DNA from: Patescibacteria group bacterium
GTDB lineage: Bacteria > Patescibacteriota > Gracilibacteria > UBA1369
NCBI GenBank assembly: GCA_963169815.1
Contig: CAUJDC010000025.1
Coordinates: forward strand, 1-52,027
DNA length: 52,027 nucleotides
Direction: 5' to 3'
Position numbers and translations under genes: made by a program. The notes beneath the pieces are model-generated. The model searched no databases and was not told the origin of the DNA. It saw nothing but the letters and a program-made list of their open reading frames with translations. This document shows, in pieces, positions 18,000 to 32,862 of the stretch; position 1 is the stretch's first letter; each line of letters starts with the position of its first letter.

Positions 18000-18365
18000 G
18001 GGAGGTTGTTTTACGCATTGAGTTTAGCAGATTATCATCCTTTAGATAAAATAATTGTACATGCTTCTGGTATTTCAGAAATTATCACTGATAAAGTTGT
18101 AATCGCTTCTGGCCAGTATGCGCTGGATCTGATAATGGACCCAGATCTCGCTGTGCCAGCCAAGATTGTATTGTCTAGGGCGGCTGTTGATGCCAAGTTT
18201 TTTGATTTGAAAACTGGAGTAGCTGGAGATGTGACGCAGAAGTTTATCAATTATAAAGCCAAGCTGATCATAGTAGGTGATTTCTCTGATCTGAGCGAAA
18301 ATTTCCAGGCTTTAATACGCGAAAATAATCGGGTGGGGGAGATAATGTTTGTGAAAAGTTTATAA
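17982..18365 (+). CDS. DUF4180-like protein (start uncertain)
   Basis: The C-terminal pattern FFDLKTGVAGDVTQKFINYKAKLIIVGDFS...NRVGEIMFV matches what I recall of DUF4180. The ATG at 17982 overlaps the divergent yaaA start, and TTG at 18006 or 18018 are alternatives. Confidence 0.55.
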   Translation: MEEDDHGRLFYALSLADYHPLDKIIVHASGISEIITDKVVIASGQYALDLIMDPDLAVPAKIVLSRAAVDAKFFDLKTGVAGDVTQKFINYKAKLIIVGDFSDLSENFQALIRENNRVGEIMFVKSL

Positions 18366-18392
18366 ACAAAAAAGCCCTATTTACATAAGGCT
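18362..18392 (-). terminator. Orphan minus-strand rho-independent terminator; inferred ancestral terminator of tRNA-Asn
   Basis: The stem AGCCCTA (18373-18379) / TAAGGCT (18386-18392) has one mismatch. On the minus strand it is followed by TTTTTTGTTTATA. No minus-strand gene lies upstream of it for 14 kb. Confidence 0.55.
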
Positions 18393-18406
18393 CTCAATTG
18401 TTACAA

Positions 18407-18415
18407 AATGGCTCC
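18407..18415. repeat. Left copy of putative att core AATGGCTCC
   Basis: It is identical to 32564-32572, which is the complement of the tRNA-Asn 3' end GGAGCCA plus TT. Confidence 0.5.
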
Positions 18416-18530
18416 GCATTCTGGAAGCTGTCAGCACATGCTTTGCCAGAGGGGAGGCGGGGTATTTTCCGTATCACGTAGTGGTGGAGCATATGAATGA
18501 GTGCATGGTGAAGACGGGGTAAGATCGTTT

Positions 18531-18564
18531 CTTATTCTACTTTGGAGGTTTAAAGTAGAATAAG
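18531..18564 (+). other. Perfect 13-bp hairpin in the island left arm
   Basis: CTTATTCTACTTT (18531-18543) pairs with AAAGTAGAATAAG (18552-18564), with loop GGAGGTTT. It lies 9 nt after the TAA (18520-18522) that would close the recombinase frame in the circular form. Confidence 0.5.
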
Positions 18565-18673
18565 AGAATTTATATTCTAGTTTCGGTGAAGTTTGCTTGC
18601 TATTTAACGGCCAAAGAGTAAATTATCTTTGTGTATGTTTGTATAACTTTGTTATTACGCTAATTTTTAGCCT

Positions 18674-18904
18674 ATGTTTGAGGATAAACCAGACATTCTC
18701 TCCATTGGAGAGGTCGCAGAAATACTGAATGTTTCGACCATGACACTTCGACGTTGGGATAAAGAGGGTATTTTGAAAGCGTTTCGGCCAAGTATGACCA
18801 AACAGCGACGGTATCATAAAAAAGATGTCATCGATTTTTTGAAATCTACGCCTGAAACACATAAGAAGCCCAAATCTCGAAGAAAATTAACACCTTTTCC
18901 ATGA
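18674..18904 (+). CDS. Excisionase/MerR-type HTH protein (76 aa)
   Basis: LSIGEVAEILNVSTMTLRRWDKEGIL resembles the excisionase-family HTH. Its stop overlaps the hsdM start (ATGA). Confidence 0.7.
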   Translation: MFEDKPDILSIGEVAEILNVSTMTLRRWDKEGILKAFRPSMTKQRRYHKKDVIDFLKSTPETHKKPKSRRKLTPFP

Positions 18905-20943
18905 ACAATTTTCAAAATAAAGTTAGCTTAATCTGGAATATCGCTGAGTTTTTGCGCGGTAGCTGGAAGCAACATGAATATCAGGATGTTGTGCTTCCTT
19001 TAACGGTTCTCAAGCGCCTTGATTCGGTTTTGGAGAAAACCAAAGAGAAAGTTTTGAAGGAATACAATCAGCATCAGGGGAAAATCAACGTGTCTCCGAT
19101 TTTGAAGGACATTACGGGTGTTGGGTTTTACAACACATCGGTTTATGACTTTCACAAACTATTGGATGATCAGAAAGATATTTCCAAAAACCTACGCAAC
19201 TACATCAGTGGTTTTTCCGAAAATGTTCAACAAATTATTGAGAAATTTGATTTTGAAAAGCATCTTGCACGTCTTGAAGGAGGTAATCTCCTGTACCTCA
19301 TTGTTAAGGAGTTAAATAAAGTTGATCTTCATCCTGATGCGGTTAGTAATACGGAGATGGGGTACATCTTTGAAGAGTTGATTCGTAGATTCTCTGAGCA
19401 ATCCAATGAGACAGCTGGTGAGCACTACACCCCGCGCGAGGTGATTCAAATGATGGTGGAGGTGATGTTTACGATGGATAAACATTTACTCAAAAAGGAG
19501 CACACAATTAAGACGATTTACGACCCTTGTTGCGGTACGGGCGGAATGCTTGCGGTTTCAAAGAAATTCATTGCTGAGCATATCAATTCCAAAGCGGATA
19601 TTTACCTGTATGGACAAGAGCTGAATCCCGTGACGTACGCCATGTGCAAGGCGGACATGCTGATTAAAGGTGAGGATGCTGACAAAATTAAAGGTGGTGA
19701 AAAAGATCACTCCAAGGCAAGTACGCTTTCTAACGACCAATTTATCGACCAACATTTTGACTACTGTATAACGAATCCGCCGTTTGGTGTGGATTGGAGA
19801 AAAGATCAAGAAGCTGTCGAGCGTGAGGCGCAGCGTGGGCACGCGGGCAGGTTTGGTGCGGGAACTCCGCGAAGTTCTGATGGGCAGTTGCTCTTTTTGC
19901 AGCACATGATTTCCAAAATGCAGAATCCTTTGAGTGGTGGAGGACGTATTGCCATCGTTTTCAACGGGTCACCTCTTTTTACAGGTGATGCTGGGAGTGG
20001 TGAAAGTGAAATCCGTCGCTGGATTTTGGAGAATGACTGGCTTGAAGCGATTGTTGCTCTGACTGATCAGCTTTTTTATAACACGGGCATTTCAACCTAC
20101 GTCTGGTTTTTAACTAACCGTAAGAAGCATGAGCGGAAAGGAAAAGTGCAGCTCATTGATGCCCGCACATTTTTCAAGAAAATGAGAAAGAGTCTCGGGA
20201 ATAAGCGCAATGAAATAACCGATGAAGATCGTGGGCACATTGTGAAGCTTTATGAGGAGTTTAAAAACTCAAAGTATAGCAAGATTTTCAAAACGACGGA
20301 TTTTGCATTCAGGCAGATTACGGTTGAACGACCGTTAAGGCTTAATTTTCACGTAAGTGCGGAAAGAATTGAGCGGGTGAAAGAACAGTCTACATTTAAG
20401 GGTTTAGCTGAAAGTAAAAAGAAAGGTGACGCTGGGATTTTGGAGATTGAGGAGGGGAAAGCGTTTCAAAAAGAGGTCTTATCTGTGCTGGAAAAGCTGG
20501 ATAGCAAGCTGTATCGAAACCGTGAGGCATTTCTTGAGGCTTTTGACGAAGCTTTCAAAAAGTCTGGCATAAAACTGCCTGTTTCACTTAAAAAAGGAAT
20601 TTTGGAAGGTTTGAGCGAACGTGACGAGGAAGCCGATATTTGCTTGGATAGTAAAGGCAATCCCGAACCAGATAGTGAACTGCGCGATACCGAAAATGTG
20701 CCTTATGAACAGGATATTTATGAGTATTTTGCAAAAGAAGTGAAGCCTTACGCGCCTGACGCGTGGATTGATGAAAAGAAAGTGGACGATAAGGACGGTA
20801 AAGTCGGACGTGTTGGCTATGAAATTCCCGTTACTCGTTATTTTTACGAATATCAACCGCCTCGCGCGCTTGAAGAGATTGAGGCGGATATTGAAAAGGT
20901 TGAGAATGAACTTCTTGGCTTGTTTAAGGAATTAACCAAATAA
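18901..20943 (+). CDS. hsdM: Type I restriction-modification methyltransferase subunit HsdM
   Basis: HsdM N-terminal domain (IWNIAEFLRGSWKQHEYQDVVLPL), SAM motif DPCCGTGGML and catalytic NPPFG. Confidence 0.95.
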   Translation: MNNFQNKVSLIWNIAEFLRGSWKQHEYQDVVLPLTVLKRLDSVLEKTKEKVLKEYNQHQGKINVSPILKDITGVGFYNTSVYDFHKLLDDQKDISKNLRNYISGFSENVQQIIEKFDFEKHLARLEGGNLLYLIVKELNKVDLHPDAVSNTEMGYIFEELIRRFSEQSNETAGEHYTPREVIQMMVEVMFTMDKHLLKKEHTIKTIYDPCCGTGGMLAVSKKFIAEHINSKADIYLYGQELNPVTYAMCKADMLIKGEDADKIKGGEKDHSKASTLSNDQFIDQHFDYCITNPPFGVDWRKDQEAVEREAQRGHAGRFGAGTPRSSDGQLLFLQHMISKMQNPLSGGGRIAIVFNGSPLFTGDAGSGESEIRRWILENDWLEAIVALTDQLFYNTGISTYVWFLTNRKKHERKGKVQLIDARTFFKKMRKSLGNKRNEITDEDRGHIVKLYEEFKNSKYSKIFKTTDFAFRQITVERPLRLNFHVSAERIERVKEQSTFKGLAESKKKGDAGILEIEEGKAFQKEVLSVLEKLDSKLYRNREAFLEAFDEAFKKSGIKLPVSLKKGILEGLSERDEEADICLDSKGNPEPDSELRDTENVPYEQDIYEYFAKEVKPYAPDAWIDEKKVDDKDGKVGRVGYEIPVTRYFYEYQPPRALEEIEADIEKVENELLGLFKELTK

Positions 20944-20946
20944 CCC

Positions 20947-21129
20947 ATGAAAATTCGCAAACTTTCGCCATCGGCCTACGTCCTGCGCAAGCAATGGGAA
21001 CTTGAGGACAAAAAAGTCTTTGCCAAATTCAGGAAAGACGAAGCGGTTTTGCAGGTGATTAATGCTTTGGCGGAGATGATTGTGCGAATGCAGGTGCGAC
21101 AACCAGAGGAACCAAAAGTGCAATTTTAG
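20947..21129 (+). CDS. Small hypothetical protein (60 aa) between hsdM and hsdS
   Basis: It fills the hsdM-hsdS gap on the same strand. No motif was recognised. Confidence 0.35.
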   Translation: MKIRKLSPSAYVLRKQWELEDKKVFAKFRKDEAVLQVINALAEMIVRMQVRQPEEPKVQF

Positions 21130-21163
21130 CCATAATGTTACGGAATTCAGTAAGAATAAAATA

Positions 21164-22459
21164 ATGCAGATTCAACTCAAGAAACATCACGGGCGGTACA
21201 GCAAATACAAGCAAACGGGAATACCGTGGCTTGGTGAGGTGCCTGAAGAATGGGAAGTGAAGAAGTTAAATCTAGCTTATGCTTTTGAAAAGGGTCAAAA
21301 TGCGCAAGTATTTACGGCTGAATATATCTCTGACGAAAATAACATTGGAGAGTACCCCGTTTATAGCGGTCAAACTGAAAATGATGGAGTAATGGGGATG
21401 ATAAATGCTTATATTTATGACAGGGAGTTTTCAATTTTTGTCACAACAGTTGGAGGAAAAGTAATGACGCCAATGTTTATTAAGGGAAAGTTTAGTCTAT
21501 CTCAAAATTGCGCCTTATTTAGGGCGAGAAATAAGAAGAAGATCTGTGATAAATATTTTTTTTATCAGCTATTTCCTCTTTTTGAAATGGAAAAAGCAAA
21601 TATTCCATCTCATATGCAACCTTCTTTAAGAATTTCTGATTTGAATAGATATATTGTTGCCTTTCCACATATTGTTGAGCAAAAAAATATTGCTCAGTAC
21701 CTCGATTTAAAAATTGATTTGGTTGATCAACTTATTGCAAGTAAGCAAAATCAAATTAATCTTTTGCAGAACAAACGCACCAGTTTGATATATCGAGCTG
21801 TAACTCTTGGGATTGATGAGCGTGTGGGAATGAAAGAAAGTGGTGTGGAATGGATTGGGAAAATTCCAATGCACTGGCAATTAATGCCTTTGTTTACGAT
21901 CGCCAAAGAACAGCAGAATAAGAATATTGGCAATAAGATCGACAATGTCCTTTCATTGAGTTATGGCAAAATAATCCGTCGAGATGTAGAAAACAATTTC
22001 GGATTATTACCTGAATCGTTTGAAACATATCAAATAGTTGATTCTGGAAACATCATTCTTCGTTTAACAGATCTTCAAAATGACAAAAGAAGTCTGAGGG
22101 TTGGCCTAGTAAAGGAGCGTGGAATTATAACTTCAGCCTATGTGTGTTTGTCAGTAAAAAAACAAATGCTGTCTGATTATTTATATGTTTTACTACATTC
22201 GTATGATTTGGAAAAAGTGTTTTATAATTTGGGTGCTGGAGTTCGTCAAACAATGAAATTTTCTGATCTAAAGCGGTTGCCAATTCCTTTACCTCCGATC
22301 CAAGAGCAGCAAAGGATAGTTGATTTCCTCAATTCTGAAACTCGGAAAATTGATAGGGCTGTAGCTATTATCAAGCAGTCAATTTCTTTCCTTGAGGAAT
22401 ATAAGACTTCTCTTATTTCCCATGTGGTAACTGGAAAAATTAAAGTAACTAACTCTTAA
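21164..22459 (+). CDS. hsdS: Type I R-M specificity subunit HsdS
   Basis: It has two target-recognition domains, each followed by a conserved helical spacer (EQKNIAQYLD... and EQQRIVDFLN...). ATG 21164 is preferred over the track start at 21080. Confidence 0.9.
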   Translation: MQIQLKKHHGRYSKYKQTGIPWLGEVPEEWEVKKLNLAYAFEKGQNAQVFTAEYISDENNIGEYPVYSGQTENDGVMGMINAYIYDREFSIFVTTVGGKVMTPMFIKGKFSLSQNCALFRARNKKKICDKYFFYQLFPLFEMEKANIPSHMQPSLRISDLNRYIVAFPHIVEQKNIAQYLDLKIDLVDQLIASKQNQINLLQNKRTSLIYRAVTLGIDERVGMKESGVEWIGKIPMHWQLMPLFTIAKEQQNKNIGNKIDNVLSLSYGKIIRRDVENNFGLLPESFETYQIVDSGNIILRLTDLQNDKRSLRVGLVKERGIITSAYVCLSVKKQMLSDYLYVLLHSYDLEKVFYNLGAGVRQTMKFSDLKRLPIPLPPIQEQQRIVDFLNSETRKIDRAVAIIKQSISFLEEYKTSLISHVVTGKIKVTNS

Positions 22460-22462
22460 GCC

Positions 22463-23287
22463 ATGAAATTTCAATATTTCACATACTTTTTGAACCCGAT
22501 ATCTCAGCAGTCTCTGTTCCCTGACCAGAGGGATAAAAATGATATTTTAATGGGAATCATGGAGAAAAAGATGGAATATAAACATATGAAATCTGACATG
22601 GTTTATGTGTTTCACAGAAAGGAGTGGAAATATTTACACGGAAAGCTTGGTAAAAAATCATCTATCAAAAGAACTCTTCCTTCTGATCATGATTTTGTTG
22701 AGCATGTCGATATAAATTACCCATATTGCAATTTATTATTGAATTTGGACAATGATGCGGAAACTGGCCAAAAAATTGCTTTTGAGTATAACTCTGTTGT
22801 TTTTCAGTCGCCAGAGGCTCAAATTAAAGCACTAGAAAAACAATTAAATACTCTTTTGTTTTCAAATGGTTATGCCATCTCAATTCATCCAGTAGTTGAT
22901 CAAAAAGAATTTTGGGCATTGGCAAAGAAATATGATGGAAAAATTGAAAAACTGATTTTTACTTATGCTGTTCCTAATCTTTTTAATCTTGAGAACGAGC
23001 TTTCAGAGGATTTGAAGCAGTCTGGTCAAAAGTATGGGATTACAAATGCTGCTATTGAATTTGAGAATAAAGCAGGTCAATTAATAATCCCTGAAAATGA
23101 CCCTTTCATGAAACAAAGTGCGGAATATACTGGAAAAGGTGGTGGCGAATATAGGCTTAAGGTTAAAGGGATGAAATCAGAGATTAGTAGCAATAAGAAC
23201 GTAAAAACTAAGTCCATTGAAGATATTGACTTGAGTACTGATGATAAGGAAACCTTTCTAGAGGCAGTTAATACAATTTTTAAGTAA
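22463..23287 (+). CDS. Uncharacterised 274-aa soluble protein embedded in the Type I R-M operon
   Basis: It starts 4 nt after hsdS on the same strand. I could not identify any catalytic motif. Confidence 0.7.
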   Translation: MKFQYFTYFLNPISQQSLFPDQRDKNDILMGIMEKKMEYKHMKSDMVYVFHRKEWKYLHGKLGKKSSIKRTLPSDHDFVEHVDINYPYCNLLLNLDNDAETGQKIAFEYNSVVFQSPEAQIKALEKQLNTLLFSNGYAISIHPVVDQKEFWALAKKYDGKIEKLIFTYAVPNLFNLENELSEDLKQSGQKYGITNAAIEFENKAGQLIIPENDPFMKQSAEYTGKGGGEYRLKVKGMKSEISSNKNVKTKSIEDIDLSTDDKETFLEAVNTIFK

Positions 23288-23293
23288 AAAAAC

Positions 23294-23722
23294 ATGAAAC
23301 TACTTGGAATTATTTTTTTCAACATCATACTCGGCGCGGGATTTATTCTGCTGAACCAATTAGTTGGCAACTGTTTTTTGAAGAATTTTTTAGACAACCA
23401 GATATTGCCTATCGGCTCAACAATTTTAGGGTTTAACCTTGCTGGTATTATATTTCTAATAGGGCATATAACTGAAATTGAAAGCAAGACGAATGCAGAT
23501 TTTTCGGCTTCTAAAAGAGAACTAAAACATAATATTTATTTTTTAGGATTGGTTTTTGTTGCAATCCTACTTCTCTTATTTGTAAATCCAACACCCACTC
23601 AATACAAATATGTAGATTTTGGTTTTAACGCTCTCATAATGACTTTGTTTTTCATGCAGTTTTACGCGGTATATGAAATTCTCAATGCGGTTTTTCATTT
23701 AAAAACAACTAAAAAATCTTAA
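23294..23722 (+). CDS. Uncharacterised small membrane protein (142 aa, ~4 TM helices)
   Basis: It has four hydrophobic segments and starts 7 nt after the preceding ORF. Confidence 0.65.
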   Translation: MKLLGIIFFNIILGAGFILLNQLVGNCFLKNFLDNQILPIGSTILGFNLAGIIFLIGHITEIESKTNADFSASKRELKHNIYFLGLVFVAILLLLFVNPTPTQYKYVDFGFNALIMTLFFMQFYAVYEILNAVFHLKTTKKS

Positions 23723-23734
23723 CTTTTTATAACC

Positions 23735-24820
23735 ATGCAACCATTTAAACCCCACAAATTGCCGATAAAAAATCTCGACTGGACTCGATTTATTCACCTT
23801 ATTGGTGAGTCAAATCGGGAGGTTGCACGTTTTGATGGTCTTTTGCAGAGCATGCAGAATCCTGGGGTGTTGCTTTCACCATTGACCACACAGGAAGCCG
23901 TGCTTTCATCGAAAATTGAGGGTACGCAGGTGACTTTGCAGGAAGTGTTGGAGTTTGAGGCAGATCCAACCGAACATGCAGAGAAACATGATGACATTGA
24001 GGAGGTTTTGAATTACCGAAAGGCAATGCACTATGCTGTGGAAAATCTGGATAAAGTGTCGTTTTCTGGAAGGCTGATTAAAGGCGTTCACTCAATTTTG
24101 CTTGATGGTGTGAGAGGAGAAAATAAAGATCGTGGAAATTTTAGAAGCGGACAAGTGCACATCGGGAAATCAAAGAAGATTGAAGAGGCAAGCTATGTTC
24201 CTCCTGCACCTCATGATATCGCTGATGCGTTCTCGAATCTTGAGAAGTATTGCCACGAAACCGAAAAAGACGATCTTGTTCAATTGGCCATTATTCACGC
24301 CCAGTTTGAGATTATTCACCCGTTTTGGGATGGAAATGGTCGTGTTGGACGTATCATTCTGCCACTTTTTCTTTATTTCAAGAAAGTGCTAACAAGTCCG
24401 ATGTTTTACCTAAGTGCCTATTTTGAAAAAAATAGGGATGAATATTATCAGTATTTGAAAGGGGTTTCCGAGAAAAATGATTGGGAATCATGGATTGAAT
24501 ATTTCTTACAGGCGGTTGTGACTCAGGCGAAAGAGAATGTTATCAAGGCTAAGGCGATTCATAGCCTTTATGACCAGAAAAAGAATCGAATAGTTGGTTT
24601 GACTCATTCACAGTTCGCAATCAAAACTTTAGATTTTCTTTTTTCTTATCCGATTTTTACATCCGCGCAATTTGTAAAGCTAACAGGAATTCCGCAAGGA
24701 ACTGCTCTTCGTTTATTGAGTAAGTTGAAACAAGGGGAGGTAATTACCGAGATGCGCACAAAAAAAGGACGTTCGGCTATGATTTATCTGTTTCCAAAGC
24801 TTTTGAAAATAACTGGTTAA
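23735..24820 (+). CDS. Fic family protein (Fic_N + Fic + C-terminal winged helix)
   Basis: Fic motif HPFWDGNGRVGR, N-terminal inhibitory-helix-like SSKIEG, and a C-terminal HTH-like region. Confidence 0.92.
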   Translation: MQPFKPHKLPIKNLDWTRFIHLIGESNREVARFDGLLQSMQNPGVLLSPLTTQEAVLSSKIEGTQVTLQEVLEFEADPTEHAEKHDDIEEVLNYRKAMHYAVENLDKVSFSGRLIKGVHSILLDGVRGENKDRGNFRSGQVHIGKSKKIEEASYVPPAPHDIADAFSNLEKYCHETEKDDLVQLAIIHAQFEIIHPFWDGNGRVGRIILPLFLYFKKVLTSPMFYLSAYFEKNRDEYYQYLKGVSEKNDWESWIEYFLQAVVTQAKENVIKAKAIHSLYDQKKNRIVGLTHSQFAIKTLDFLFSYPIFTSAQFVKLTGIPQGTALRLLSKLKQGEVITEMRTKKGRSAMIYLFPKLLKITG

Positions 24821-25022
24821 TTCTTAACTGTCACGAATGACACATAAAATCTTTTATCTCTCGCAATTGTAAAAACATGAGAGATAAAGTAAGTTAACTC
24901 TCACATATGAAACTTAAGTTAGTTTGTAGCTCATAAAATCGAAAATATGAGCGATAAAAAGAATTATAGCTCATCTGTTAGCTACAACGTTGTAACAATA
25001 ACTTCTAAACTTTAACGAAAAT

Positions 25023-27956
25023 ATGCCAACCAATACCCGTGAAATCGGCTTTGAAGCCTACATTGAAACCTTTCTCATCGATCAAAACGGCTATGAAAAG
25101 CGCAAGCCTGAAAACTACGATAAGGCCTTATGTGTCGATCGTGAGGTGACTTTGCGGTTTATCAAAGAGACTCAGCCGAAGGAATGGGATCTTTTGGCAG
25201 AACATCATGGTAGTTTTGCGGAAGAAAAGTTTTTTAAGCGGCTGAATGAGGAAGTTAAGGCGCGTGGACTGCTTGATGTTCTGCGTACTGGCATTAAAGA
25301 CAACGGTTCATCTTTTTCTTTGGCTTACTTCAGGCCTGTAACGAGCATTAATGAAGAAACGCGTAAACTTTATGAAGGAAATATTTTTAGCGTGATGCGT
25401 CAGGTGAAGTACAGTGCACGAAATGAAAATTCGATTGATATGGTGATTTTTTTGAATGGTTTGCCGATATTTACCATTGAACTCAAGAATCAGCTGACTG
25501 GCCAGTCTGTGACGAACGCTTTGAGGCAATACAAGACTGATCGCGATCCAAACGAGCCTTTGTTGCAATTTAAACGGGCTTTGACGCACTTTGCTGTGGA
25601 TACCGACGAAGTGTACATGACGACTAAGCTTGAAGGGCTTAAAACCTTTTTCTTGCCCTTCAACAAAGGCAATGAAATGTCCGCAGGTAATCCGCCAGCC
25701 AAGAACAAATACAAGACAGAGTACGTGTGGGAAGATATTTGGACAAAAGACACGGTGCTTGAGATAGTTAGCCGCTTTTTGTGCCTGCAAAAAGAGGAAA
25801 AGGTTGATGCAAACGGCAAAAAGAGGATTGAAGAAAAATTGATTTTCCCGCGTTATCACCAGCTTGATGCCGTGCGCAGACTTATTACGAACTCACGAGA
25901 AGTGGGGGCGGGAAAAAACTATCTCATTCAACATAGTGCAGGAAGCGGAAAGAGCAATACGATTGCGTGGGTTGCGCACCGTCTGGCTGATTTGCACGAT
26001 GAAACGGATAAAAAAGTTTTTGATTCCGTGATTATCATCACTGATCGTCGCGTGCTTGATAAACAGCTCCAGAATACGGTTGCACAATTTGAGCAAGTAC
26101 GAGGCGTGGTAAAGAAGATTGATAAGCACAGTTCTCAGCTTCGTGAAGCCTTAGAAAATGGGGAGAAAATTATTATCACCACTTTGCAGAAATTCCCCGT
26201 GATTGTGGAGGATATGGAAAAATTATCGGGGAAGAATTTTGCGGTCATCATCGATGAGGCGCATTCTTCTCAAACTGGTGAAAGTGCAAAGACACTTAAA
26301 CAGGTTTTGACTTTTGATGAACAGGAAAGAGATTACGAGGATGGTGAAGAATTTATTTTGAAAGAAATGAAATCGCGTGGCAGACAAAAGAACGTGAGCT
26401 TTTTGGCATTTACGGCAACACCAAAGCAAAAGACGCTGGAAATGTTCGGAGAAAAACAGTTTGATGGAACGTTTAGACCGTTCTCGATTTATTCGATGAA
26501 ACAGGCTATTGATGAAGGCTTTATTCTGGATGTTCTCAAGAATTACACCACTTACCAGATGTATTTTAACCTGCTCAAAAAAGTGCAGGACGATCCTGAT
26601 TATAAGAAAAAGAAGGCGCAGAGACTGATGGTGGATTTTGTTGGAAAACATGAAGTGGCGATCCAAAAGAAAATCGAAATTATTGTGACTCATTTTTGGG
26701 AAAATATTGCTCGTGAAATAGGCGGTAAAGCTAAGGCAATGATTGTAACCCGTTCACGTTTGCACGCTGTACGTTTCAAGCTGGAGATGGATGCCTATCT
26801 TGCGAAAAACAATTTACCAATGAAGTCATTGGTGGCCTTTTCTGGAACGGTTGATGATGGCGATTTGGAATACACCGAATCTCAAATGAATGGTGTTTCG
26901 GAAAATCAAACAGCGGACACTTTCAAGGAGGATGATTACAAGTTTTTGATTGTGGCGGAAAAATTCCAGACTGGCTTTGATGAGCCGCTTTTGACCGCTA
27001 TGTATGTGGATAAAAAGCTTTCTGGGGTGAATTGCGTGCAGACGCTTTCGCGCTTGAATCGTACAAGGCCTGACAAAGAGGAAACCTTTGTGCTAGATTT
27101 TGTGAATAATACGGACGACATTAAAGAGTCCTTCCAGCCTTATTACACGACAACGGTGCTTGCTGAGGCGACTGATCCAAATATCCTGCATGATTTGCAG
27201 CGCGATATTTTGAACTATAAGCTTTTTGATGAACGAGAGATTGGCGAGTTTTGCAAAATGTATTTCCGTGGAGTTTCTCCAAGTGAGCTGAATGGATTTT
27301 TGGATGTAATTAAGCCTCGTTTTCTGGAACTTGATAAAGAACAACAAACGGACTGCAGGAAGAAAATGAGCGAATATCTCAAGAAATACGCCTTTATTTC
27401 ACAGATCATTTCGTTTAGCGATAGTAGTCTTGAAAAGCTTTATGTTTTCTTACGGCTTTATCGCAGAAAATTGCCGATAACAACGGAGACATTGCCATTT
27501 GAGGTGCTTGACTCAGTCGATTTGGAATCAATCAAAATACCGCAGGTCGGGCAAACCAGTATCACGCTTGAAAATGAAGATGGTGCACTTGAACCGATTG
27601 CAGGACGTGGCCGAGGGAAAAATGAGGATGAGAATGAGGTGTTGTCGAAGATTATCAAGGAGGTTAACGAGCGCTTTGGGACGACTTTTAGTGAAGAAGA
27701 TCGAATCATATTGAACAATCTTACCAAACGCCTGCTCGACCACAATGCGCTTGCAGGAGCGGTTAAAAACAATAATTCGCAAGATGCAGTGAAGGTGAAA
27801 TTTGATGAGGTGTTTGAAAAAGAGCTCATCTCAATGTTCCGCAATAATTTTGACCTGTACCAGAAGTTAGATTCAAATGCTGACTTGAAAGACTACGTCA
27901 ACCGAAAGATGTTTGATTTTATTCAAAAGAAATTGAAGAAGGATGGCGGAAAATAG
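25023..27956 (+). CDS. hsdR: Type I restriction endonuclease subunit HsdR
   Basis: N-terminal nuclease domain (IDMVIFLNGLPIFTIELK), helicase motif I HSAGSGKS, DEAH box IIDEAHSS, and motif VI QTLSRLNR. Confidence 0.95.
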   Translation: MPTNTREIGFEAYIETFLIDQNGYEKRKPENYDKALCVDREVTLRFIKETQPKEWDLLAEHHGSFAEEKFFKRLNEEVKARGLLDVLRTGIKDNGSSFSLAYFRPVTSINEETRKLYEGNIFSVMRQVKYSARNENSIDMVIFLNGLPIFTIELKNQLTGQSVTNALRQYKTDRDPNEPLLQFKRALTHFAVDTDEVYMTTKLEGLKTFFLPFNKGNEMSAGNPPAKNKYKTEYVWEDIWTKDTVLEIVSRFLCLQKEEKVDANGKKRIEEKLIFPRYHQLDAVRRLITNSREVGAGKNYLIQHSAGSGKSNTIAWVAHRLADLHDETDKKVFDSVIIITDRRVLDKQLQNTVAQFEQVRGVVKKIDKHSSQLREALENGEKIIITTLQKFPVIVEDMEKLSGKNFAVIIDEAHSSQTGESAKTLKQVLTFDEQERDYEDGEEFILKEMKSRGRQKNVSFLAFTATPKQKTLEMFGEKQFDGTFRPFSIYSMKQAIDEGFILDVLKNYTTYQMYFNLLKKVQDDPDYKKKKAQRLMVDFVGKHEVAIQKKIEIIVTHFWENIAREIGGKAKAMIVTRSRLHAVRFKLEMDAYLAKNNLPMKSLVAFSGTVDDGDLEYTESQMNGVSENQTADTFKEDDYKFLIVAEKFQTGFDEPLLTAMYVDKKLSGVNCVQTLSRLNRTRPDKEETFVLDFVNNTDDIKESFQPYYTTTVLAEATDPNILHDLQRDILNYKLFDEREIGEFCKMYFRGVSPSELNGFLDVIKPRFLELDKEQQTDCRKKMSEYLKKYAFISQIISFSDSSLEKLYVFLRLYRRKLPITTETLPFEVLDSVDLESIKIPQVGQTSITLENEDGALEPIAGRGRGKNEDENEVLSKIIKEVNERFGTTFSEEDRIILNNLTKRLLDHNALAGAVKNNNSQDAVKVKFDEVFEKELISMFRNNFDLYQKLDSNADLKDYVNRKMFDFIQKKLKKDGGK

Positions 27957-27979
27957 TAGTTTGAATAACAAACCAAGTT

Positions 27980-29644
27980 ATGAAAATTAAGAAAATTAGA
28001 ATTGCTGGATATCGTTCTATTAAGGAAACAATCGAACTTGAACTTGGGGATGTGAATGCTCTTATTGGCGCAAACAATGTGGGAAAAACGAATATTCTTA
28101 ATGCCATTTGGTCAGTTCTTGGTAAAGACTGGGTAACAGTGAATTCTTTTGATGAAAGTGATGTCTTTAAAAATGAATTTGATCAAGATATTGATATCGA
28201 AGTTGAATTTGAAGAACCATACAAATATGAATCTTATAAGGGGGCAGAGCCTGTTGATGTCCCACAAATAAATTTTAGATATACGCGATATAAAGTTGGT
28301 GAATTTGAAGGTCAAAGGAGATTGGAGAAAAGATGCTTGAATGCTAGTGGGCAGCCAGTGCAAGTCTTGTCGAAGAAACCACAAAAAGGAGAAAAAAGGC
28401 AGTATCAACCTTTGATTTCAATACCGCAGCAGATTCAAGAATCAATTCCAGTAATTTATATTGGGGCAAATAGAGAGTTGAAATACCAATTACCTGAGTC
28501 CAAGAATTCACTACTTGGCTCCCTACTTGCTGATGTAAATAAAGATTTTCAGGATCCTGAAAATAAAATGAAAGTTACTAATAAGCAGGGAGAAGAGGTT
28601 GAGGTTTCTCGGGTGGAAAGATTTAATCAATGTATTAAAGCTGCAATTGAGGCTTTGAAAACAGAAGATTTTTTGGCTCTAGAAAAGACAATTCGTGATA
28701 ATGCATTGTTGCAGCTTGGTATTGATCCTGAGCATTCTGGTTTGAATGTTTTCTTTCAGCCATTAACCTCTTTGGATTTTTATAAGTCGCTGAATATTTT
28801 TGTTGAAGAGAATGGATTTAGCTTGAATGCTACTTCATTAGGAGGAGGGTTTCAGAACGCTTTGGTTATTGCAATTTTGAAAGCTTTTGAGGAAAGGAAA
28901 AAATCAGGTGCAGTTTTTCTCATCGAGGAACCAGAGATGTTTTTGCATCCTCAAATGCAGCGATCTTTGTATAAAACTATACGTAAAATTGGGAAAACTA
29001 ATCAGGTTATTTATACAACGCATTCTCCTCATTTCGTAACAATTCCAGAATATGATGAAATAGTTTTGGTGAGTAAAAATGAAAATGGTACAAAAAGACG
29101 AAAGAGCTCTCTTCCAAAGACAACAGAACTTGAGCAAAAGCTTAGGAAGGAGCTTGATCCAGAAAGAAGCGAGTTTTTCTTCGCTAAAAGAGTCCTTTTT
29201 GTAGAAGGAGATACCGAAAAATTGGCATTGCCTGAATACGCCATCAGAGAGGCGTTGGATTTTGACGGGGTTGGTGGAACAATTGTAGAGGTTGGAGGGA
29301 AAAGGAATCTCCAGATGATGGCTGACATTGCACTTTCTTTCGACATATCTACTGGAATTATTTTCGATACAGATTCGTCTGATTTTAGTGACAAAACAGA
29401 AGAGAAAGAATTCAATGAATTACTGGATGGATATTCTAAAAAGGGTGCAAAAGTTTGGAAATTTGAGAAAAATTATGAAGAAGAATTGAAAAAAGCTCTT
29501 ACAGACAACGTTTATCAGACTGCTTGTCAGAAGTATCCAAAAACATCAAAGGCTATAAAAGCCAGATTGATCGCGCAAGATACAACCTATTCTGTTCCAG
29601 ATTTTATTAAGCCAATTATTAAATGGCTTGCAAATAAAGAATAA
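27980..29644 (+). CDS. OLD-family ATP-dependent nuclease (ABC-type ATPase + Toprim), standalone
   Basis: N-terminus IKKIRIAGYRSI...LIGANNVGKTN (Walker A), Walker B FLIEEPEMFLHP, and THSPHF. Toprim motifs are LFVEGDTEKLALP and IIFDTDS. No partner helicase follows. Confidence 0.85.
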   Translation: MKIKKIRIAGYRSIKETIELELGDVNALIGANNVGKTNILNAIWSVLGKDWVTVNSFDESDVFKNEFDQDIDIEVEFEEPYKYESYKGAEPVDVPQINFRYTRYKVGEFEGQRRLEKRCLNASGQPVQVLSKKPQKGEKRQYQPLISIPQQIQESIPVIYIGANRELKYQLPESKNSLLGSLLADVNKDFQDPENKMKVTNKQGEEVEVSRVERFNQCIKAAIEALKTEDFLALEKTIRDNALLQLGIDPEHSGLNVFFQPLTSLDFYKSLNIFVEENGFSLNATSLGGGFQNALVIAILKAFEERKKSGAVFLIEEPEMFLHPQMQRSLYKTIRKIGKTNQVIYTTHSPHFVTIPEYDEIVLVSKNENGTKRRKSSLPKTTELEQKLRKELDPERSEFFFAKRVLFVEGDTEKLALPEYAIREALDFDGVGGTIVEVGGKRNLQMMADIALSFDISTGIIFDTDSSDFSDKTEEKEFNELLDGYSKKGAKVWKFEKNYEEELKKALTDNVYQTACQKYPKTSKAIKARLIAQDTTYSVPDFIKPIIKWLANKE

Positions 29645-29651
29645 AATTTTC

Positions 29652-29753
29652 TTGCATCCCTGTTCCGAATTAGTATAATTACCTCGTAAGATTTTGAGTC
29701 TCTAAAGACCAGTTTGTCCACGAAAACGTGGGCGAAAAACTGGCCTTTTTTTG
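29652..29753 (+). ncRNA. Candidate ~70-nt small RNA or attenuating leader (consensus-like promoter followed by a strong terminator)
   Basis: TTGCAT (29652-29657), a 16-nt spacer, then TATAAT (29674-29679). The hairpin is CCAGTTT (29709-29715) / AAACTGG (29737-29743) with an inner CCACG/CGTGG stem. It is followed by CCTTTTTTT. Confidence 0.4.
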
Positions 29754-29798
29754 TGTTCCAAAATCTTGCGAATGTTACAAATGTTATACGAATAGGCT

Positions 29799-30152
29799 AT
29801 GCTCGGAAAACCGCATACCATAAAGGCAAAGAAGAAATTTCTGGAGGCGCTGAAAAAGCGTCGAGGAATTGTGACTTTGGCGTGCAAGGAAGCGGATGTT
29901 TCGCCGATGACTTTTTATCGCTGGCAGAACGATGATTCCGAATTTTACCAGATGTCTGAGGAAATTCGGGATGTTGAGATTGGCATCATTGCCGAGGACA
30001 GGCTGGCCGAATATATCATCGTCCACAAAGACCCGAACATGATCCGCTTTTATCTGCAGTCCAGAAGCAGAAAGTACATTCAAAGACTTCAAATGCAAAC
30101 TGAAGACCCGTCCAAGGTTTTGGCCGATCTCTTGAAGCTGGATGAGTTTTGA
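29799..30152 (+). CDS. Phage-type HTH protein (phBC6A51 / terminase-small-subunit-like homeodomain)
   Basis: KKKFLEALKKRRGIVTLACKEADVSPMTFYRWQNDDSEF resembles phBC6A51-type HTH proteins. Confidence 0.6.
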   Translation: MLGKPHTIKAKKKFLEALKKRRGIVTLACKEADVSPMTFYRWQNDDSEFYQMSEEIRDVEIGIIAEDRLAEYIIVHKDPNMIRFYLQSRSRKYIQRLQMQTEDPSKVLADLLKLDEF

Positions 30153-30340
30153 CCCGTACCCGCAAAATAATGAATACACATGAAGAATCACAACCTGCTG
30201 GAAACCTCACTGAAACGCAAAAGAAAGAATTGCGCAGCCTTTTTGAGCCAAAATACGGGTATGAACTCAGCGACGAGGATTTGTTTGAAATCCACTTTAA
30301 CCTGAAGCGCTTTTTTATGGCTGTCAGCAAAGTATCTTAA
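30149..30340 (+). CDS. Small hypothetical protein (63 aa)
   Basis: Its start overlaps the preceding stop (ATGA). No motif was recognised. Confidence 0.4.
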   Translation: MTRTRKIMNTHEESQPAGNLTETQKKELRSLFEPKYGYELSDEDLFEIHFNLKRFFMAVSKVS

Positions 30341-30351
30341 CCTTCTTTCAC

Positions 30352-30591
30352 ATGAATAATACACTTTTTCACACTGCCGATTGGTACCTGTTTGTCTGGT
30401 TGTTAGCACACGGTTTCGCCGTGAAACAGATTGAAAGAAATAATCCCAGTAAATGCCAGTTTTATTTTGAGAGTTCAGCGGAGCTTGAAGGTGAAGTTCA
30501 GGCCTTTTGGAGAAATGAAACGGTAAATGTGCAGGATTTTATTCTGGCCATCAAAAAGGCAAAAGTACTGCTTCATGCCGATAGTTTTTAA
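30352..30591 (+). CDS. Small phage-like protein (DUF5659-like, 79 aa)
   Basis: The pattern YLFVWLLAHGFAVKQIE...CQFYFESSAELE resembles DUF5659 as I recall it. Confidence 0.5.
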   Translation: MNNTLFHTADWYLFVWLLAHGFAVKQIERNNPSKCQFYFESSAELEGEVQAFWRNETVNVQDFILAIKKAKVLLHADSF

Positions 30592-30738
30592 GATATCCAA
30601 ATATGGCCAGTTATTTGCGAGTTAAGAGAGGAGCAGGAGGTTGTAATCACAAGGGAATAGGAGAGTGTAGAAGGATTATGGCTTATTCACTGGATATTCG
30701 TGTCGTTTAAGGCATTGTGTTGGTAACTAAAGATATAT

Positions 30739-32595
30739 ATGCAAAGAACAGTTCTATATTGTCGCAAGTCTTCGGACAGCGATGACAGACAGGTACAATC
30801 CCTTGATGATCAGGAAACTGAGCTGAAGGATTTTGTGAAGAGGGCTAATGGATTTGCACAAAACAGCAATGAGAGGATGGAGATTGTGGAGATTATCAAA
30901 GAAAGCTGCTCGGCCAAAAACTCGGGTGAAAGGCCGCTTTTTAACCGAATGGTAGAGGACGCGCAAAGGGGAAAGTATGATGTGATTTTGATCTGGTCTC
31001 CTGATCTTATTTCGAGGAATTTGGGTGATATGGATAAGATTATCAGGCTTTTGGAAAGCCATAAGATCAAACATCTTCTAACTCAATCAAACCAAACTTA
31101 CGGCAATCGTGCTATTGAAAAGGGCATGCTGCAGTACTGTGTTGTGAATGCCAAGATGGAAAATGACCAGAAAGGTGAGAACGTGGTGCGTGGATTGAAA
31201 CGAAAAATCCGTGATGGTAACTGGATCGGCAATGCCCGACTTGGTTATCTGAATTTTGGAAATAAAAAAGGCCAGCGTTGGGTCGATAAAGACCCTGAGC
31301 GATGGGAAATTATCAAGCAATGTTGGGAAATGTTTGCGACTGGAGCCTATTCTGTCCCTCGAATCAGGGATAAAGCCGAAGAGATGGGACTTCGATCACG
31401 CCCAATGCGAAACAAGCCTGAAGGCGCTCGTGTGGGCATAAACACCTACTACGACATGTTCTGGAATGTTTTTTATCTGGGCAAAATGCTGGTTGGTAGA
31501 AAGGAAGATGTGAAGCTATTGCCAGAATTAAAGACGATGATACTCAATGGGGAAATTGAAGGTGAGATTTTTGAAGACTACGTTATTGTGAAAGGCAAAC
31601 ACCCGCCGATGATTTCAGAAGAGTTGTTTCGCCGTGTGCAGGTAATTCTCAAAGAGCGTGGCCTTGCCCATCATTGCACTAAAACACATTTTAAGGACTT
31701 TGTTTTTGCTGGATTGATTTTGTGTGGATCGTGCGGTCATGCTGTTGTGACGGAAGAAAAGACCAAATACAAGTGCACTGACTGTGGCACTTGGTTTACC
31801 TGCTCATCCGCTCGACCAACTCCTACCGATTGTAAAAAGTGCAAGAAGCGTTTGAGTAGGCAGGCGCTGGAAAACAGCTCTTACTACTGCTATGCCCACT
31901 GTTCGGGCAAGAACAAGGAAAAGAAATTTTGTCCGCAGACCTTTCACCCTAATGGAAGACCTAAACCAACTATTCCTGTAGTTGAGTTGGAAAGGCAGGT
32001 TGATGACATGCTGAACCGACTTTCGATGGATGAAGAGGTTTACGCCTATTGCATCAGCACTCTAAAAGACGAACATTTTCAGAATAAGATCGTTCAAAAT
32101 CAATCTTTGACGCTTTTGCAGAAAGATCACAAGCGAATCAAGGAAAAACTCGATAAGCTGGTGGATTTGAGGCTTGCTGGAGAGATTGATGCCGAGTATT
32201 TCGCAAATAAGAAGTCTGAGCTGGAAACGAACATCAAGGAGATCATGCAGCAACTTGAGAAGTTTAATCAGAAAAATACCGATTGGGTCGAACAGACGGA
32301 AACCTTCTTGAATATGGCTTCCAGAGCCAGTTTAGCGTTCAAGAACGGAGATAATCTGACAAAACGGGAAATCTTGAAAAGCATTAGCTCGCACATATAT
32401 TTGCAGGGCGGTAAACTCCGCTTTGAATTTCGCAAACCATTCGACATCTTACTCAAAGAACCGCCAACACAAGACTTAGACGCTGTGTCGAAAAATCAGG
32501 AGTTCGAACCAAACGGACATCAGGAAAAAGCCAAAATATCTGCTTTTGGCTCTCGTTTTTCTGAATGGCTCCCTCGACTGGGCTCGAACCAGTGA
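30739..32595 (+). CDS. Large serine recombinase (resolvase catalytic domain + recombinase domain + zinc ribbon + coiled coil)
   Basis: VLYCRKSSDSDDRQVQSLDDQ (catalytic Ser region), a Cys-rich CGSCGH...CTDCG...CKKCKK segment, and a coiled-coil tail. The last 30 nt overlap the tRNA-Asn 3' exon, and the stop is TGA. Confidence 0.92.
   Translation: MQRTVLYCRKSSDSDDRQVQSLDDQETELKDFVKRANGFAQNSNERMEIVEIIKESCSAKNSGERPLFNRMVEDAQRGKYDVILIWSPDLISRNLGDMDKIIRLLESHKIKHLLTQSNQTYGNRAIEKGMLQYCVVNAKMENDQKGENVVRGLKRKIRDGNWIGNARLGYLNFGNKKGQRWVDKDPERWEIIKQCWEMFATGAYSVPRIRDKAEEMGLRSRPMRNKPEGARVGINTYYDMFWNVFYLGKMLVGRKEDVKLLPELKTMILNGEIEGEIFEDYVIVKGKHPPMISEELFRRVQVILKERGLAHHCTKTHFKDFVFAGLILCGSCGHAVVTEEKTKYKCTDCGTWFTCSSARPTPTDCKKCKKRLSRQALENSSYYCYAHCSGKNKEKKFCPQTFHPNGRPKPTIPVVELERQVDDMLNRLSMDEEVYAYCISTLKDEHFQNKIVQNQSLTLLQKDHKRIKEKLDKLVDLRLAGEIDAEYFANKKSELETNIKEIMQQLEKFNQKNTDWVEQTETFLNMASRASLAFKNGDNLTKREILKSISSHIYLQGGKLRFEFRKPFDILLKEPPTQDLDAVSKNQEFEPNGHQEKAKISAFGSRFSEWLPRLGSNQ
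32525..32561. terminator. Bidirectional hairpin inside the recombinase 3' end, directly downstream of tRNA-Asn on the minus strand
   Basis: AGCCAAAA (32529-32536) pairs with TTTTGGCT (32544-32551). T runs follow the stem on both strands. Confidence 0.55.
32564..32572. repeat. Right copy of putative att core AATGGCTCC (overlaps the tRNA-Asn CCA end)
   Basis: It is identical to 18407-18415. Confidence 0.5.
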
Positions 32596-32862
32596 CCTAC
32601 CGGTTACACTTATTCTGATATTTCTATCAGGCGTGGACTATATCTTCACCATGACATCAAAGGGTTGGAGATGATGTGGACAGGTGCGTTGGTATCTAGT
32701 CTCTACGGCGCCCTCACGTAAGTGAGGTTCCCTCGGTATTGGCGTGCTACATGTAAATGTAGTTTAGCTTTCACCGATATCCCAACGAGTTTCAATCAAG
32801 CTTTAGCCTGAAAGCTGCGTTTATTGTCACAGCCGGTTGCTCTACCACTGAGCTACAAGGGA
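32566..32862 (-). tRNA. tRNA-Asn(GUU) interrupted by a group I intron (5' exon 32862-32829, 3' exon 32606-32566)
   Basis: The spliced 75-nt sequence is TCCCTTGTAGCTCAGTGGTAGAGCAACCGGCTGTTAACCGGTAGGTCACTGGTTCGAGCCCAGTCGAGGGAGCCA. It folds as a full cloverleaf with a 7-bp acceptor stem (U1-A72), G73, encoded CCA and loop CUGUUAA. It closely resembles E. coli tRNA-Asn as I recall it. Confidence 0.85.
32607..32828 (-). ncRNA. Group I intron (222 nt) in the anticodon loop, between U35 and U36
   Basis: P1 pairs exon GCUGU with intron GCAGC, placing a U-G wobble at the splice site. The intron ends in G. The core elements GUAGAGACUAGA and GAAGAUAUAGUCC form P7 (GACUA/UAGUC). Hairpins are CUACAU-UUAC-AUGUAG, CCUCAC-UUAC-GUGAGG and CUGAUA-GAAA-UAUCAG. 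Confidence 0.85.

What the first reader, a model, noticed from the sequence alone, without database searches (positions are those of the whole stretch)
18362..32595. Island boundaries and the empty target site can be reconstructed; an orphan terminator marks the old tRNA 3' flank
AATGGCTCC occurs at 18407-18415 and again at 32564-32572, where it covers the complement of the tRNA-Asn 3' end (GGAGCCA). Just left of the left copy is a hairpin (18373-18392) that is followed by a T run only on the minus strand. The nearest minus-strand gene upstream of that hairpin is the tRNA, 14 kb away. Deleting 18416-32572 would place the tRNA CCA end 15-20 nt from this terminator, which is a normal tRNA gene context. 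The island supplies a replacement bidirectional hairpin (32529-32551) next to the tRNA. A 9-bp core is short, but large serine recombinases need only a few identical base pairs. Island genes also differ from the backbone in stop-codon use and, by eye, in GC content.
Basis: inference. Interest (0 to 1): 0.6.

Follow-up and report, generated by a model that had tools for sequence, protein, structure and literature searches.

The report
Serine-recombinase defence island at tRNA-Asn

Summary
Confirmed. AATGGCTCC occurs only at 18407-18415 and 32564-32572. Alone, that 9-mer is near chance. Independent evidence fixes the edges. Related islands in three other species (recombinase 94% identical) become similar to the window at 18407, 18408 and 18410, and their left flanks are unrelated. 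The identity shared by both junctions narrows to GGCTCC. Island proteins are 84-98% identical between hosts whose neighbouring chromosomal gene is about 50% identical, so transfer was recent. The hairpin at 18370-18395 folds well only on the minus strand, lies 13-16 nt from the restored CCA end, and aligns with the tRNA-Asn terminators of island-free relatives. The recombinase frame continues across the core into 18409-18519. That tail is under purifying selection and is followed by its own terminator, so integration swaps the recombinase C-terminus. Not supported: a difference in GC or stop-codon use. No conspecific empty site or circular form was found. This scan has already reported tRNA-targeting serine-recombinase islands in Patescibacteria on other DNA. 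This island lacks their internal inverted attP.

The parts
18362..18395 (-). Orphan intrinsic terminator: the former 3' flank of tRNA-Asn (B arm of attL)
   Evidence: Terminator-like site on the minus strand only. Fold -17.2 kcal/mol, z -3.2, on minus against -6.2, z 0, on plus. Aligns with the tRNA-Asn terminators of island-free G014 and G020.
18407..18415 (+). Core copy in attL (AATGGCTCC). The crossover is limited to GGCTCC, 18410-18415.
   Evidence: The identity shared by attL and attR is 9 bp here, 8 bp in G043 and 6 bp in G044.
18409..18522 (+). P' arm: the displaced 3' end of the recombinase gene (37 codons plus TAA), in frame with the recombinase only across a P-core-P' (attP-type) junction
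   Evidence: The rejoined frame gives 646 aa. Synonymous:non-synonymous changes are 6:4 in this frame and 1:9 and 2:8 in the other two. Homologous tails occur in P0005, P0007, P0009 and P0011. The tail is fused to recombinase bodies in P0121 and P0124.
18528..18567 (+). 18-bp-stem hairpin with a T-rich tail, 6 nt after the tail's stop codon: candidate terminator of the uninterrupted recombinase gene
18674..18904 (+). HTH_17/MerR-like small protein ahead of hsdM. It travels with the R-M cargo, not with the recombination backbone.
   Evidence: Pfam. Present in G043 and G044 but not in the part shared with G041.
18901..22459 (+). Type I R-M methylase HsdM (18901-20943) and specificity subunit HsdS (21080-22459)
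   Evidence: HsdM is 97% identical in G043 and G044; HsdS is variable.
22463..24820 (+). Two proteins of unknown function (274 aa and 142 aa) and a SoFic-type Fic protein (23735-24820)
   Evidence: Pfam Fic_N + Fic. PADLOC SoFic, E 2.9e-116.
25023..27956 (+). Type I restriction subunit HsdR
   Evidence: 97.8% identical in G043 and G044.
27980..29644 (+). OLD-family ATPase-Toprim nuclease
   Evidence: AAA_15 + OLD-like Toprim. PADLOC Old / GajA. Absent from the G044 island.
29645..30738 (+). Conserved recombination-module leader: small ORFs and DUF5659 (30352-30591). A directionality factor, if there is one, would be sought here.
   Evidence: Shared at 89-95% with G041, whose cargo differs, and with G043 and G044. 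DUF5659 from Pfam.
30739..32595 (+). Large serine recombinase, integrated form (618 aa). Its last 8 codons and the TGA stop are antisense to the tRNA.
   Evidence: Resolvase + Recombinase domains. W610 (TGG) is the complement of the tRNA's CCA.
32529..32551 (.). Hairpin inside the recombinase ORF, 15 nt past the tRNA CCA end: candidate replacement terminator (P arm)
   Evidence: minus strand -15.2 kcal/mol, z -2.2, followed by UUUUUCC. The stem is conserved in L029, L030 and L032 while the loop changes.
32564..32572 (+). Core copy in attR
32566..32862 (-). tRNA-Asn(GUU): exons 32862-32829 and 32606-32566, group I intron 32828-32607

Best explanation
Positions 18416-32572 (14,157 bp) are one mobile defence island. 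It carries a type I R-M system, SoFic and an OLD nuclease. A large serine recombinase encoded at its right end inserted it at the 3' end of tRNA-Asn.

Recombination took place inside GGCTCC, the complement of the tRNA's last bases. This core lies inside the 3' end of the recombinase's own reading frame (codons W-L).

Integration therefore had four effects:
(i) it left the tRNA sequence unchanged;
(ii) it moved the tRNA's own terminator (18362-18395) 14 kb away, to the far edge of the island;
(iii) it put an island hairpin (32529-32551) behind the tRNA;
(iv) it cut the recombinase's last 36 codons (the rejoined frame from 18415) and their terminator away to the left end, so the integrated gene ends in 8 tRNA-antisense codons instead.

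Shown: the boundaries, the site specificity of the family, recent horizontal transfer, and the coding nature of the tail. Inferred: the exact crossover dinucleotide, terminator function, and whether the tail affects activity.
For: - Left edge. DNA similarity of islands in G041, G043 and G044 starts at window 18407, 18408 and 18410, next to unrelated flanks.
- Core. The identity shared by both junctions shrinks to GGCTCC in G044.
- attP. The predicted 25-mer is present verbatim at a P-core-P' junction in G041.
- Site specificity. Nine of ten family loci abut tRNA-Asn(GTT), and TGG (W610) is always the complement of CCA. G003 in the same host family also has one.
- Horizontal transfer. HsdM, HsdR, Fic, OLD and the recombinase are 84-98% identical to those of G043 and G044, while the neighbouring chromosomal 408-aa protein is 49-51% identical.
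- Tail. The rejoined frame is open for 646 aa. Synonymous changes dominate only in that frame. Homologous tails occur in P0005, P0007, P0009 and P0011. Public proteins P0121 and P0124 carry this tail (77-92% identical) fused to recombinase bodies. A terminator-like hairpin follows the tail's stop.
- Old terminator. It is strand-specific. Island-free relatives show the same tRNA-hairpin-T-run layout. The window's flank aligns with those of G014 and G020.
Against: - No genome of the same species exists in the collections, so the exact empty attB was not seen.
- No circular junction was found in metagenome or viral contigs.
- The 9-bp repeat alone is at chance level.
- Dyad symmetry of the rebuilt attP is weak: 10 of 20 positions at the centre that falls in the core, and 11 of 20 at a centre just outside it.
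- Terminator hairpins in AT-rich genomes look alike, so the alignment with G014 and G020 could partly reflect convergence.
- The region between yaaA and tRNA-Asn varies among relatives, so synteny beyond the hairpin cannot be checked.
- P0121 has a body only 21% identical to this recombinase but a 92% identical tail. At least some tail fusions are therefore hybrid or tandem junctions, not native proteins.
Confidence: 0.87

Rival explanations
1. The island is real, but its left edge lies elsewhere, for example including the DUF4180 gene (17982-18365) or reaching yaaA. On this view the 9-bp repeat is a coincidence.
For: The 9-mer is at chance level for the space searched. The stretch between yaaA and tRNA-Asn varies among relatives, and the DUF4180 gene lies elsewhere in G014.
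Against: Three independent islands lose similarity to the window at 18407, 18408 and 18410, not further left. The reading frame and the tail's coding signal start at the core.
Confidence: 0.04
2. The hairpin at 18370-18395 is not an orphan tRNA terminator. It is the 3' end signal of the convergent DUF4180 gene, or a generic intergenic hairpin.
For: It starts 5 nt after the DUF4180 stop codon. Terminator hairpins of AT-rich genomes resemble one another, which weakens the alignment argument.
Against: On the plus strand the fold is no better than shuffled sequence (-6.2 kcal/mol, z 0) and no T run follows it. Its distance from the restored CCA end (13-16 nt) and its sequence match the tRNA-Asn terminators of six island-free relatives. 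G043 likewise has a hairpin directly outside its attL.
Confidence: 0.15
3. The open frame from 18409 is not a functional recombinase tail. Its conservation would reflect only DNA-level constraint on the P' half-site, and the apparent fusions would be artefacts of gene calling across tandem junctions.
For: P0121 joins a body only 21% identical to a 92% identical tail, which suggests hybrid junctions. The AlphaFold model gives the tail low confidence (pLDDT 30-50).
Against: Synonymous changes dominate only in this frame, and the first 23 of the 36 codons after the shared TGG, about 70 bp and more than a usual half-site, encode the same residues in three of the four islands; G044 has one change, R to H. 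Tails diverge along with bodies within the family (P0005, P0007, P0009, P0011). L036 shows synonymous differences from the window. A terminator-like hairpin follows the stop.
Confidence: 0.25

Closest known systems
Large serine recombinases (serine integrases) of phages and integrative elements: phiC31, Bxb1, A118/LI, SPbeta SprA, TP901-1
   Same: Resolvase catalytic domain with a serine in a YxRxS motif, plus the Recombinase domain. Cys-rich ribbon and long helices. Weak sequence match to A118 integrase, PDB 4kis. Only a very short identity is shared by attL and attR.
   Different: The target is the 3' end of a tRNA gene, which is left intact. Reviews describe serine-recombinase elements as inserting into, and disrupting, dispensable protein genes (PMC5704250). 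Here attP lies inside the recombinase ORF, so the product changes on integration. Pfam's zinc-ribbon model PF13408 does not hit this protein.
tRNA-linked genomic islands and prophages with tyrosine integrases (P4-type and ICE/IME tRNA integrations)
   Same: The element lies at a tRNA 3' end. The tRNA is regenerated. The site is reused, with tandem or decayed elements (G041, G021, G043). The cargo is defence genes.
   Different: The enzyme class differs. The shared core is 6-9 bp, not tens of bp of duplicated tRNA. No tyrosine integrase is present in the island.
Elements whose attP lies inside one of their own genes: SSV1-type archaeal integrases (int split on integration) and mycobacteriophage BPs integration-dependent immunity (PMC4557955, seen)
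   Same: Integration changes the C-terminal end of an element-encoded protein, so the free and integrated states make different products.
   Different: Those systems use tyrosine recombinases. In BPs the repressor is the truncated gene, and in SSV1 the integrase is split mid-gene. Here only the last 36 residues of a serine recombinase (those after W610) are replaced by 8 residues read antisense from the tRNA. What this does is untested.
tRNA-targeting serine-recombinase islands of Patescibacteria reported earlier in this scan (e1-1081160, e1-996349, e1-4924455 and others)
   Same: Ultra-small-genome host, large serine recombinase, insertion at a tRNA 3' end, end of the recombinase gene split across the site, defence cargo.
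   Different: Those islands are described as carrying a second, inverted internal attP with long perfect inverted repeats. None is present here: no inverted repeat beyond chance and no second attP-like site within 3 mismatches. No recombinase about 60-70% or more identical to this one was indexed by the scan.

Membership tests
Large serine recombinase | N-terminal resolvase-type catalytic domain with the serine nucleophile | tested here: met
   PF00239, E 1.4e-18, residues 5-162. Y7, R9 and S11 are nearly invariant in 15 homologues.
Large serine recombinase | Recombinase domain (PF07508) after the catalytic domain | tested here: met
   PF07508, E 4.3e-9, residues 186-307. Match to A118 integrase, PDB 4kis/6dnw, residues 277-372.
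Large serine recombinase | Zinc-ribbon domain with an embedded coiled coil | tested here: inconclusive
   PF13408 is not reported for this protein, but more distant homologues carry it. Conserved Cys pairs C329/C332, C346/C349 and C365/C368. The model shows strands at 325-411 followed by long helices at 412-534, with a low overall pLDDT of 59.7.
Large serine recombinase | attL and attR share only a short core around a central crossover, with no long direct repeats | tested here: met
   Core of 9, 8 and 6 bp in three genomes. No longer repeat links the two edges.
Large serine recombinase | Catalyses attP x attB recombination | not testable with these tools
   Needs a biochemical or in vivo assay.
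Site-specifically integrated genomic island | Same element found at the same kind of site next to different flanking DNA | tested here: met
   G041, G043 and G044: same ends, different left flanks.
Site-specifically integrated genomic island | Unoccupied site in related genomes that matches the two flanks joined | tested here: inconclusive
   No conspecific genome was available. Island-free G014 and G020, from other genera, have tRNA-Asn followed by a terminator that aligns with 18350-18408.
Site-specifically integrated genomic island | Evidence of horizontal origin | tested here: met
   Island proteins are 84-98% identical between hosts whose adjacent chromosomal protein is 49-51% identical. 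GC content does not differ.
Intrinsic (rho-independent) terminator, for 18362-18395 | G+C-containing stem-loop followed directly by a T run on the transcribed strand | tested here: met
   Minus strand only. Function in vivo was not tested.
Patescibacterial serine-recombinase islands with an internal inverted attP (this scan's earlier class) | Second, inverted copy of attP with long perfect inverted repeats inside the island | tested here: not met
   The longest inverted repeats are 20-30 nt at 70-86%. The only hit to the attP 22-mer within 3 mismatches is attL itself.

The most novel reading that the evidence does not exclude
The tail swap is a built-in state switch. The free element would make a 646-aa recombinase whose conserved, probably helical C-terminal tail tunes activity, stability or direction. 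The integrated element makes a 618-aa form that ends in tRNA-antisense codons. Because several very different tRNA-Asn-targeting recombinases read the core in the same W-L frame, tails and left-end modules would be exchanged between elements by site-specific recombination at the shared core.
Probability: 0.3. Interest if true: 0.75.

Novelty: new variant of a known kind. Interest (0 to 1): 0.52.

Why it matters
The result gives base-pair boundaries, a 6-bp crossover window and natural attP, attL and attR sequences for a serine recombinase that targets a tRNA gene without damaging it. Serine integrases are usually described as inserting into protein genes. The result also shows nearly identical defence cargo moving between Patescibacteria genera, which have few known routes of gene transfer. 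Finally, it offers a testable case in which integration rewrites the recombinase's own C-terminus. Such recombinases, with a small, conserved and ubiquitous target, could also be of interest as genome-engineering tools.

Tried and rejected
The contigs behind the Logan and ENA proteins (P0001, P0002, P0121-P0124) could therefore not be read.
- An exact-pattern scan of metagenome contigs for the left flank found nothing. Scans for the attP junction in metagenome and viral contigs also found nothing.
- The attB 24-mer is absent from all 50 fetched loci.
- Dyad-symmetry analysis of the rebuilt attP and attB gave only weak values: 10-11 of 20 positions, with a second centre scoring as well as the one in the core. 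I dropped it as evidence.
- GC and stop-codon contrast was rejected. The genome uses TGA stops at 9% under the standard code, so there is no recoding.
- The AlphaFold2 model of a tail-bearing homologue (P0007) had low confidence (pLDDT 59.7). The tail comes out helical at pLDDT 30-50, so no structural conclusion is possible.
- An internal inverted attP, as in earlier scan findings, is not present.
- The left edge of the G021 island could not be fixed by a repeat.
- Literature searches found no description of a serine recombinase with attP inside its own ORF, or of one that targets tRNA-Asn. Absence from this library is not proof of novelty.
Full report
**What is there.** The window comes from a 1.09-Mb genome in 59 contigs, 99.9% complete. 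Relatives that carry the same recombinase are labelled Peribacteria, Gracilibacteria or Peregrinibacteria. AATGGCTCC occurs only at 18407-18415 and 32564-32572. The right copy overlaps the 3' end (GGAGCCA) of a minus-strand tRNA-Asn(GUU). ARAGORN misses this tRNA because a 222-nt group I intron splits the anticodon loop (RF00028, 46.7 bits, E 9e-11). The joined exons are called tRNA-Asn(gtt), 75 nt.

**Genes between the repeats.** All supported genes are on the plus strand:
- an HTH_17/MerR-like protein, HsdM and HsdS;
- two proteins of unknown function and a SoFic-type Fic protein;
- HsdR and an OLD-family nuclease;
- DUF5659 and a 618-aa large serine recombinase, whose ORF runs 30 nt into the tRNA.

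**Is the repeat meaningful?** Not alone. Comparing 1.1 kb on the left with 250 bp on the right yields two shared 9-mers, where about one is expected. The decisive evidence is comparative.

**Comparative evidence for the left edge.** The genome collection holds ten loci of this recombinase family. Four have a recombinase 94% identical to the window's, and three of those genomes (G041, G043, G044) also contain the island's left end. Their similarity to the window begins at 18407, 18408 and 18410. The DNA to the left is unrelated in each genome. The identity shared by attL and attR is AATGGCTCC here, ATGGCTCC in G043 and GGCTCC in G044. The crossover therefore lies within GGCTCC.

**A natural attP.** In G041 the left end is joined to a leftover P arm, the last codons of a decayed recombinase gene. 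This forms a natural P-core-P' junction.

**Site specificity and transfer.** Nine of the ten family loci abut tRNA-Asn(GTT), with or without the intron. G003, in the same host family, has one too. G021 carries an island with different cargo and a recombinase only about 25-29% identical at the same tRNA. The cargo is modular:
- G043 has the same R-M, Fic and OLD set.
- G044 lacks OLD and has an internally deleted recombinase.
- G041 has a different type I R-M system.

Only 18407-18520 and 29645-32572 are shared by all. Island proteins are 84-98% identical between genomes whose adjacent chromosomal 408-aa protein is 49-51% identical. The island therefore moved recently between genera.

**The recombinase gene spans attP.** Family members end in ...FSEW-L..., and the TGG codon is the complement of the tRNA's CCA. 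Those that end in LPRLGSNQ or similar are reading tRNA antisense. P0005, P0007, P0009 and P0011 instead have longer tails that are homologous to one another. Joining 32572 to 18416 keeps the window's frame open for a 646-aa product. Its tail (WLRILEAVSTCF...) aligns without gaps to those tails.

Evidence that the tail is coding:
- Among the four islands, synonymous changes dominate only in this frame. Against G041, synonymous:non-synonymous counts are 6:4, compared with 1:9 and 2:8 in the other frames. The first 23 codons after the shared TGG encode the same residues in the window, G041 and G043; G044 has one change, R to H.
- An 18-bp-stem hairpin with a T-rich tail follows the tail's stop codon.
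- Public proteins P0121 (561 aa) and P0124 carry this tail (92% and 77% identical) fused to recombinase bodies.

P0121's body is only 21% identical to the window's recombinase. Some of these fusions are therefore hybrid or tandem junctions. This shows that different tRNA-Asn-targeting recombinases read the core in the same frame. An AlphaFold2 model of P0007 was too uncertain to say how the tail packs.

**The orphan terminator.** The hairpin at 18370-18395 is reported as terminator-like on the minus strand only. It folds at -17.2 kcal/mol (z -3.2) on that strand and at -6.2 kcal/mol (z 0) on the plus strand. After the proposed deletion it would lie 13-16 nt past the CCA end. Six island-free relatives have tRNA-Asn-CCA, then 1-13 nt, a hairpin and a T run. 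The window's old flank aligns with the flanks of G014 and G020 (local scores 32 and 30; 0 of 500 shuffles reach them). The present flank, the P arm, aligns less well. G043 also has a hairpin just outside its attL. The island hairpin at 32529-32551 forms on both strands. On the tRNA strand it is followed by UUUUUCC, 15 nt past CCA.

**What does not hold.** GC content is the same in the island and the backbone. Stop-codon use does not differ meaningfully. Only GC3 is higher in the island. The genome uses the standard code, with 9% TGA stops.

**Limits.**
- No conspecific genome, empty site or circular form was found.
- The crossover dinucleotide, terminator function and any role of the tail are inferred.

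**Context.** Earlier findings of this scan describe a large class of tRNA-targeting serine-recombinase islands in Patescibacteria, which usually carry an internal inverted attP. This island belongs to that general class but has no such copy. No recombinase about 60-70% or more identical to this one was indexed by the scan. The open literature I could search describes serine-recombinase elements as disrupting protein genes (PMC5704250). I found no account of attP inside a serine recombinase's own ORF.

Noticed in passing
window 32607-32828 (minus strand); also L009, L010, L011, L012, L013, L014, L032: A group I intron splits the anticodon loop of tRNA-Asn(GUU). The intron is present in some relatives (G014, G020, G024, G004, G019, G021, G043) and absent in others, including the same-genus G001. 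In G021, G019 and G004 the two exons lie about 300 nt further apart. An ORF of 114 aa (L022 16481-16825, minus) may be an inserted gene.
   Followed up: partly
G000:C27 (L028 1234-2955 minus; tRNA at 1291-1365 plus): The same genome has a second large serine recombinase (32% identical over the N-terminal 250 residues). Its 573-aa ORF reads antisense through a whole tRNA-Gln(UUG). This is probably a second island of the same general kind at another tRNA.
   Followed up: partly
L049 (G043), reverse strand about 1490-2910: Just outside the G043 attL lies a 1.37-kb two-gene segment. It is bracketed by a direct repeat of about 45 bp that consists of the flank hairpin plus TGGCTCC. The outer copy continues with CCC, as the tRNA-Asn end does. 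It may be an older insertion or a leftover attB.
   Followed up: partly
L047/L048 (G041): Relative to the window, the block of the 408-aa gene, ssb and tRNA-Gln is inverted and lies to the left of the island. About 4.3 kb separates it from a P-core-P' junction that carries only the last codons (..GAYFSEW) of a decayed recombinase gene.
   Followed up: partly
L022 (G021) about 7376-7430: Inside the G021 island region, GAATGGCTCC is followed by a degenerate tRNA-like 3' fragment (..GTTCGAACC..). This suggests an older, decayed attR and tandem accretion at this hot spot. The G021 island also carries a subtilase, an AAA ATPase and a small terminase subunit.
   Followed up: no
L050 (G044): The G044 copy of the island lacks the OLD nuclease, and its recombinase has lost about residues 1-317. 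The copy is probably fixed in place. Its tRNA-Asn flank implies an original gene ending in CCG rather than CCA, so the encoded CCA there comes from the island.
   Followed up: partly
window 23774-23799: A 26-nt stretch at the start of the Fic gene matches the tRNA's B' arm (32573-32598) at 20 of 26 positions, including CTCGACTGG. No GGCTCC core precedes it, so this is probably chance.
   Followed up: no
window, whole: None of the 34 long backbone ORFs in the window ends in TGA, although 9% of ORFs genome-wide do. This is probably sampling (p about 0.04).
   Followed up: yes
L036 (contig JANQJU010000012.1, binned as SAR324): A family member 51% identical, with an intact non-tRNA tail, sits among relaxase-like, coupling-protein-like, RadC, PIN and tyrosine-integrase genes. 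This may be an unintegrated or conjugative element, and the bin assignment looks doubtful.
   Followed up: partly
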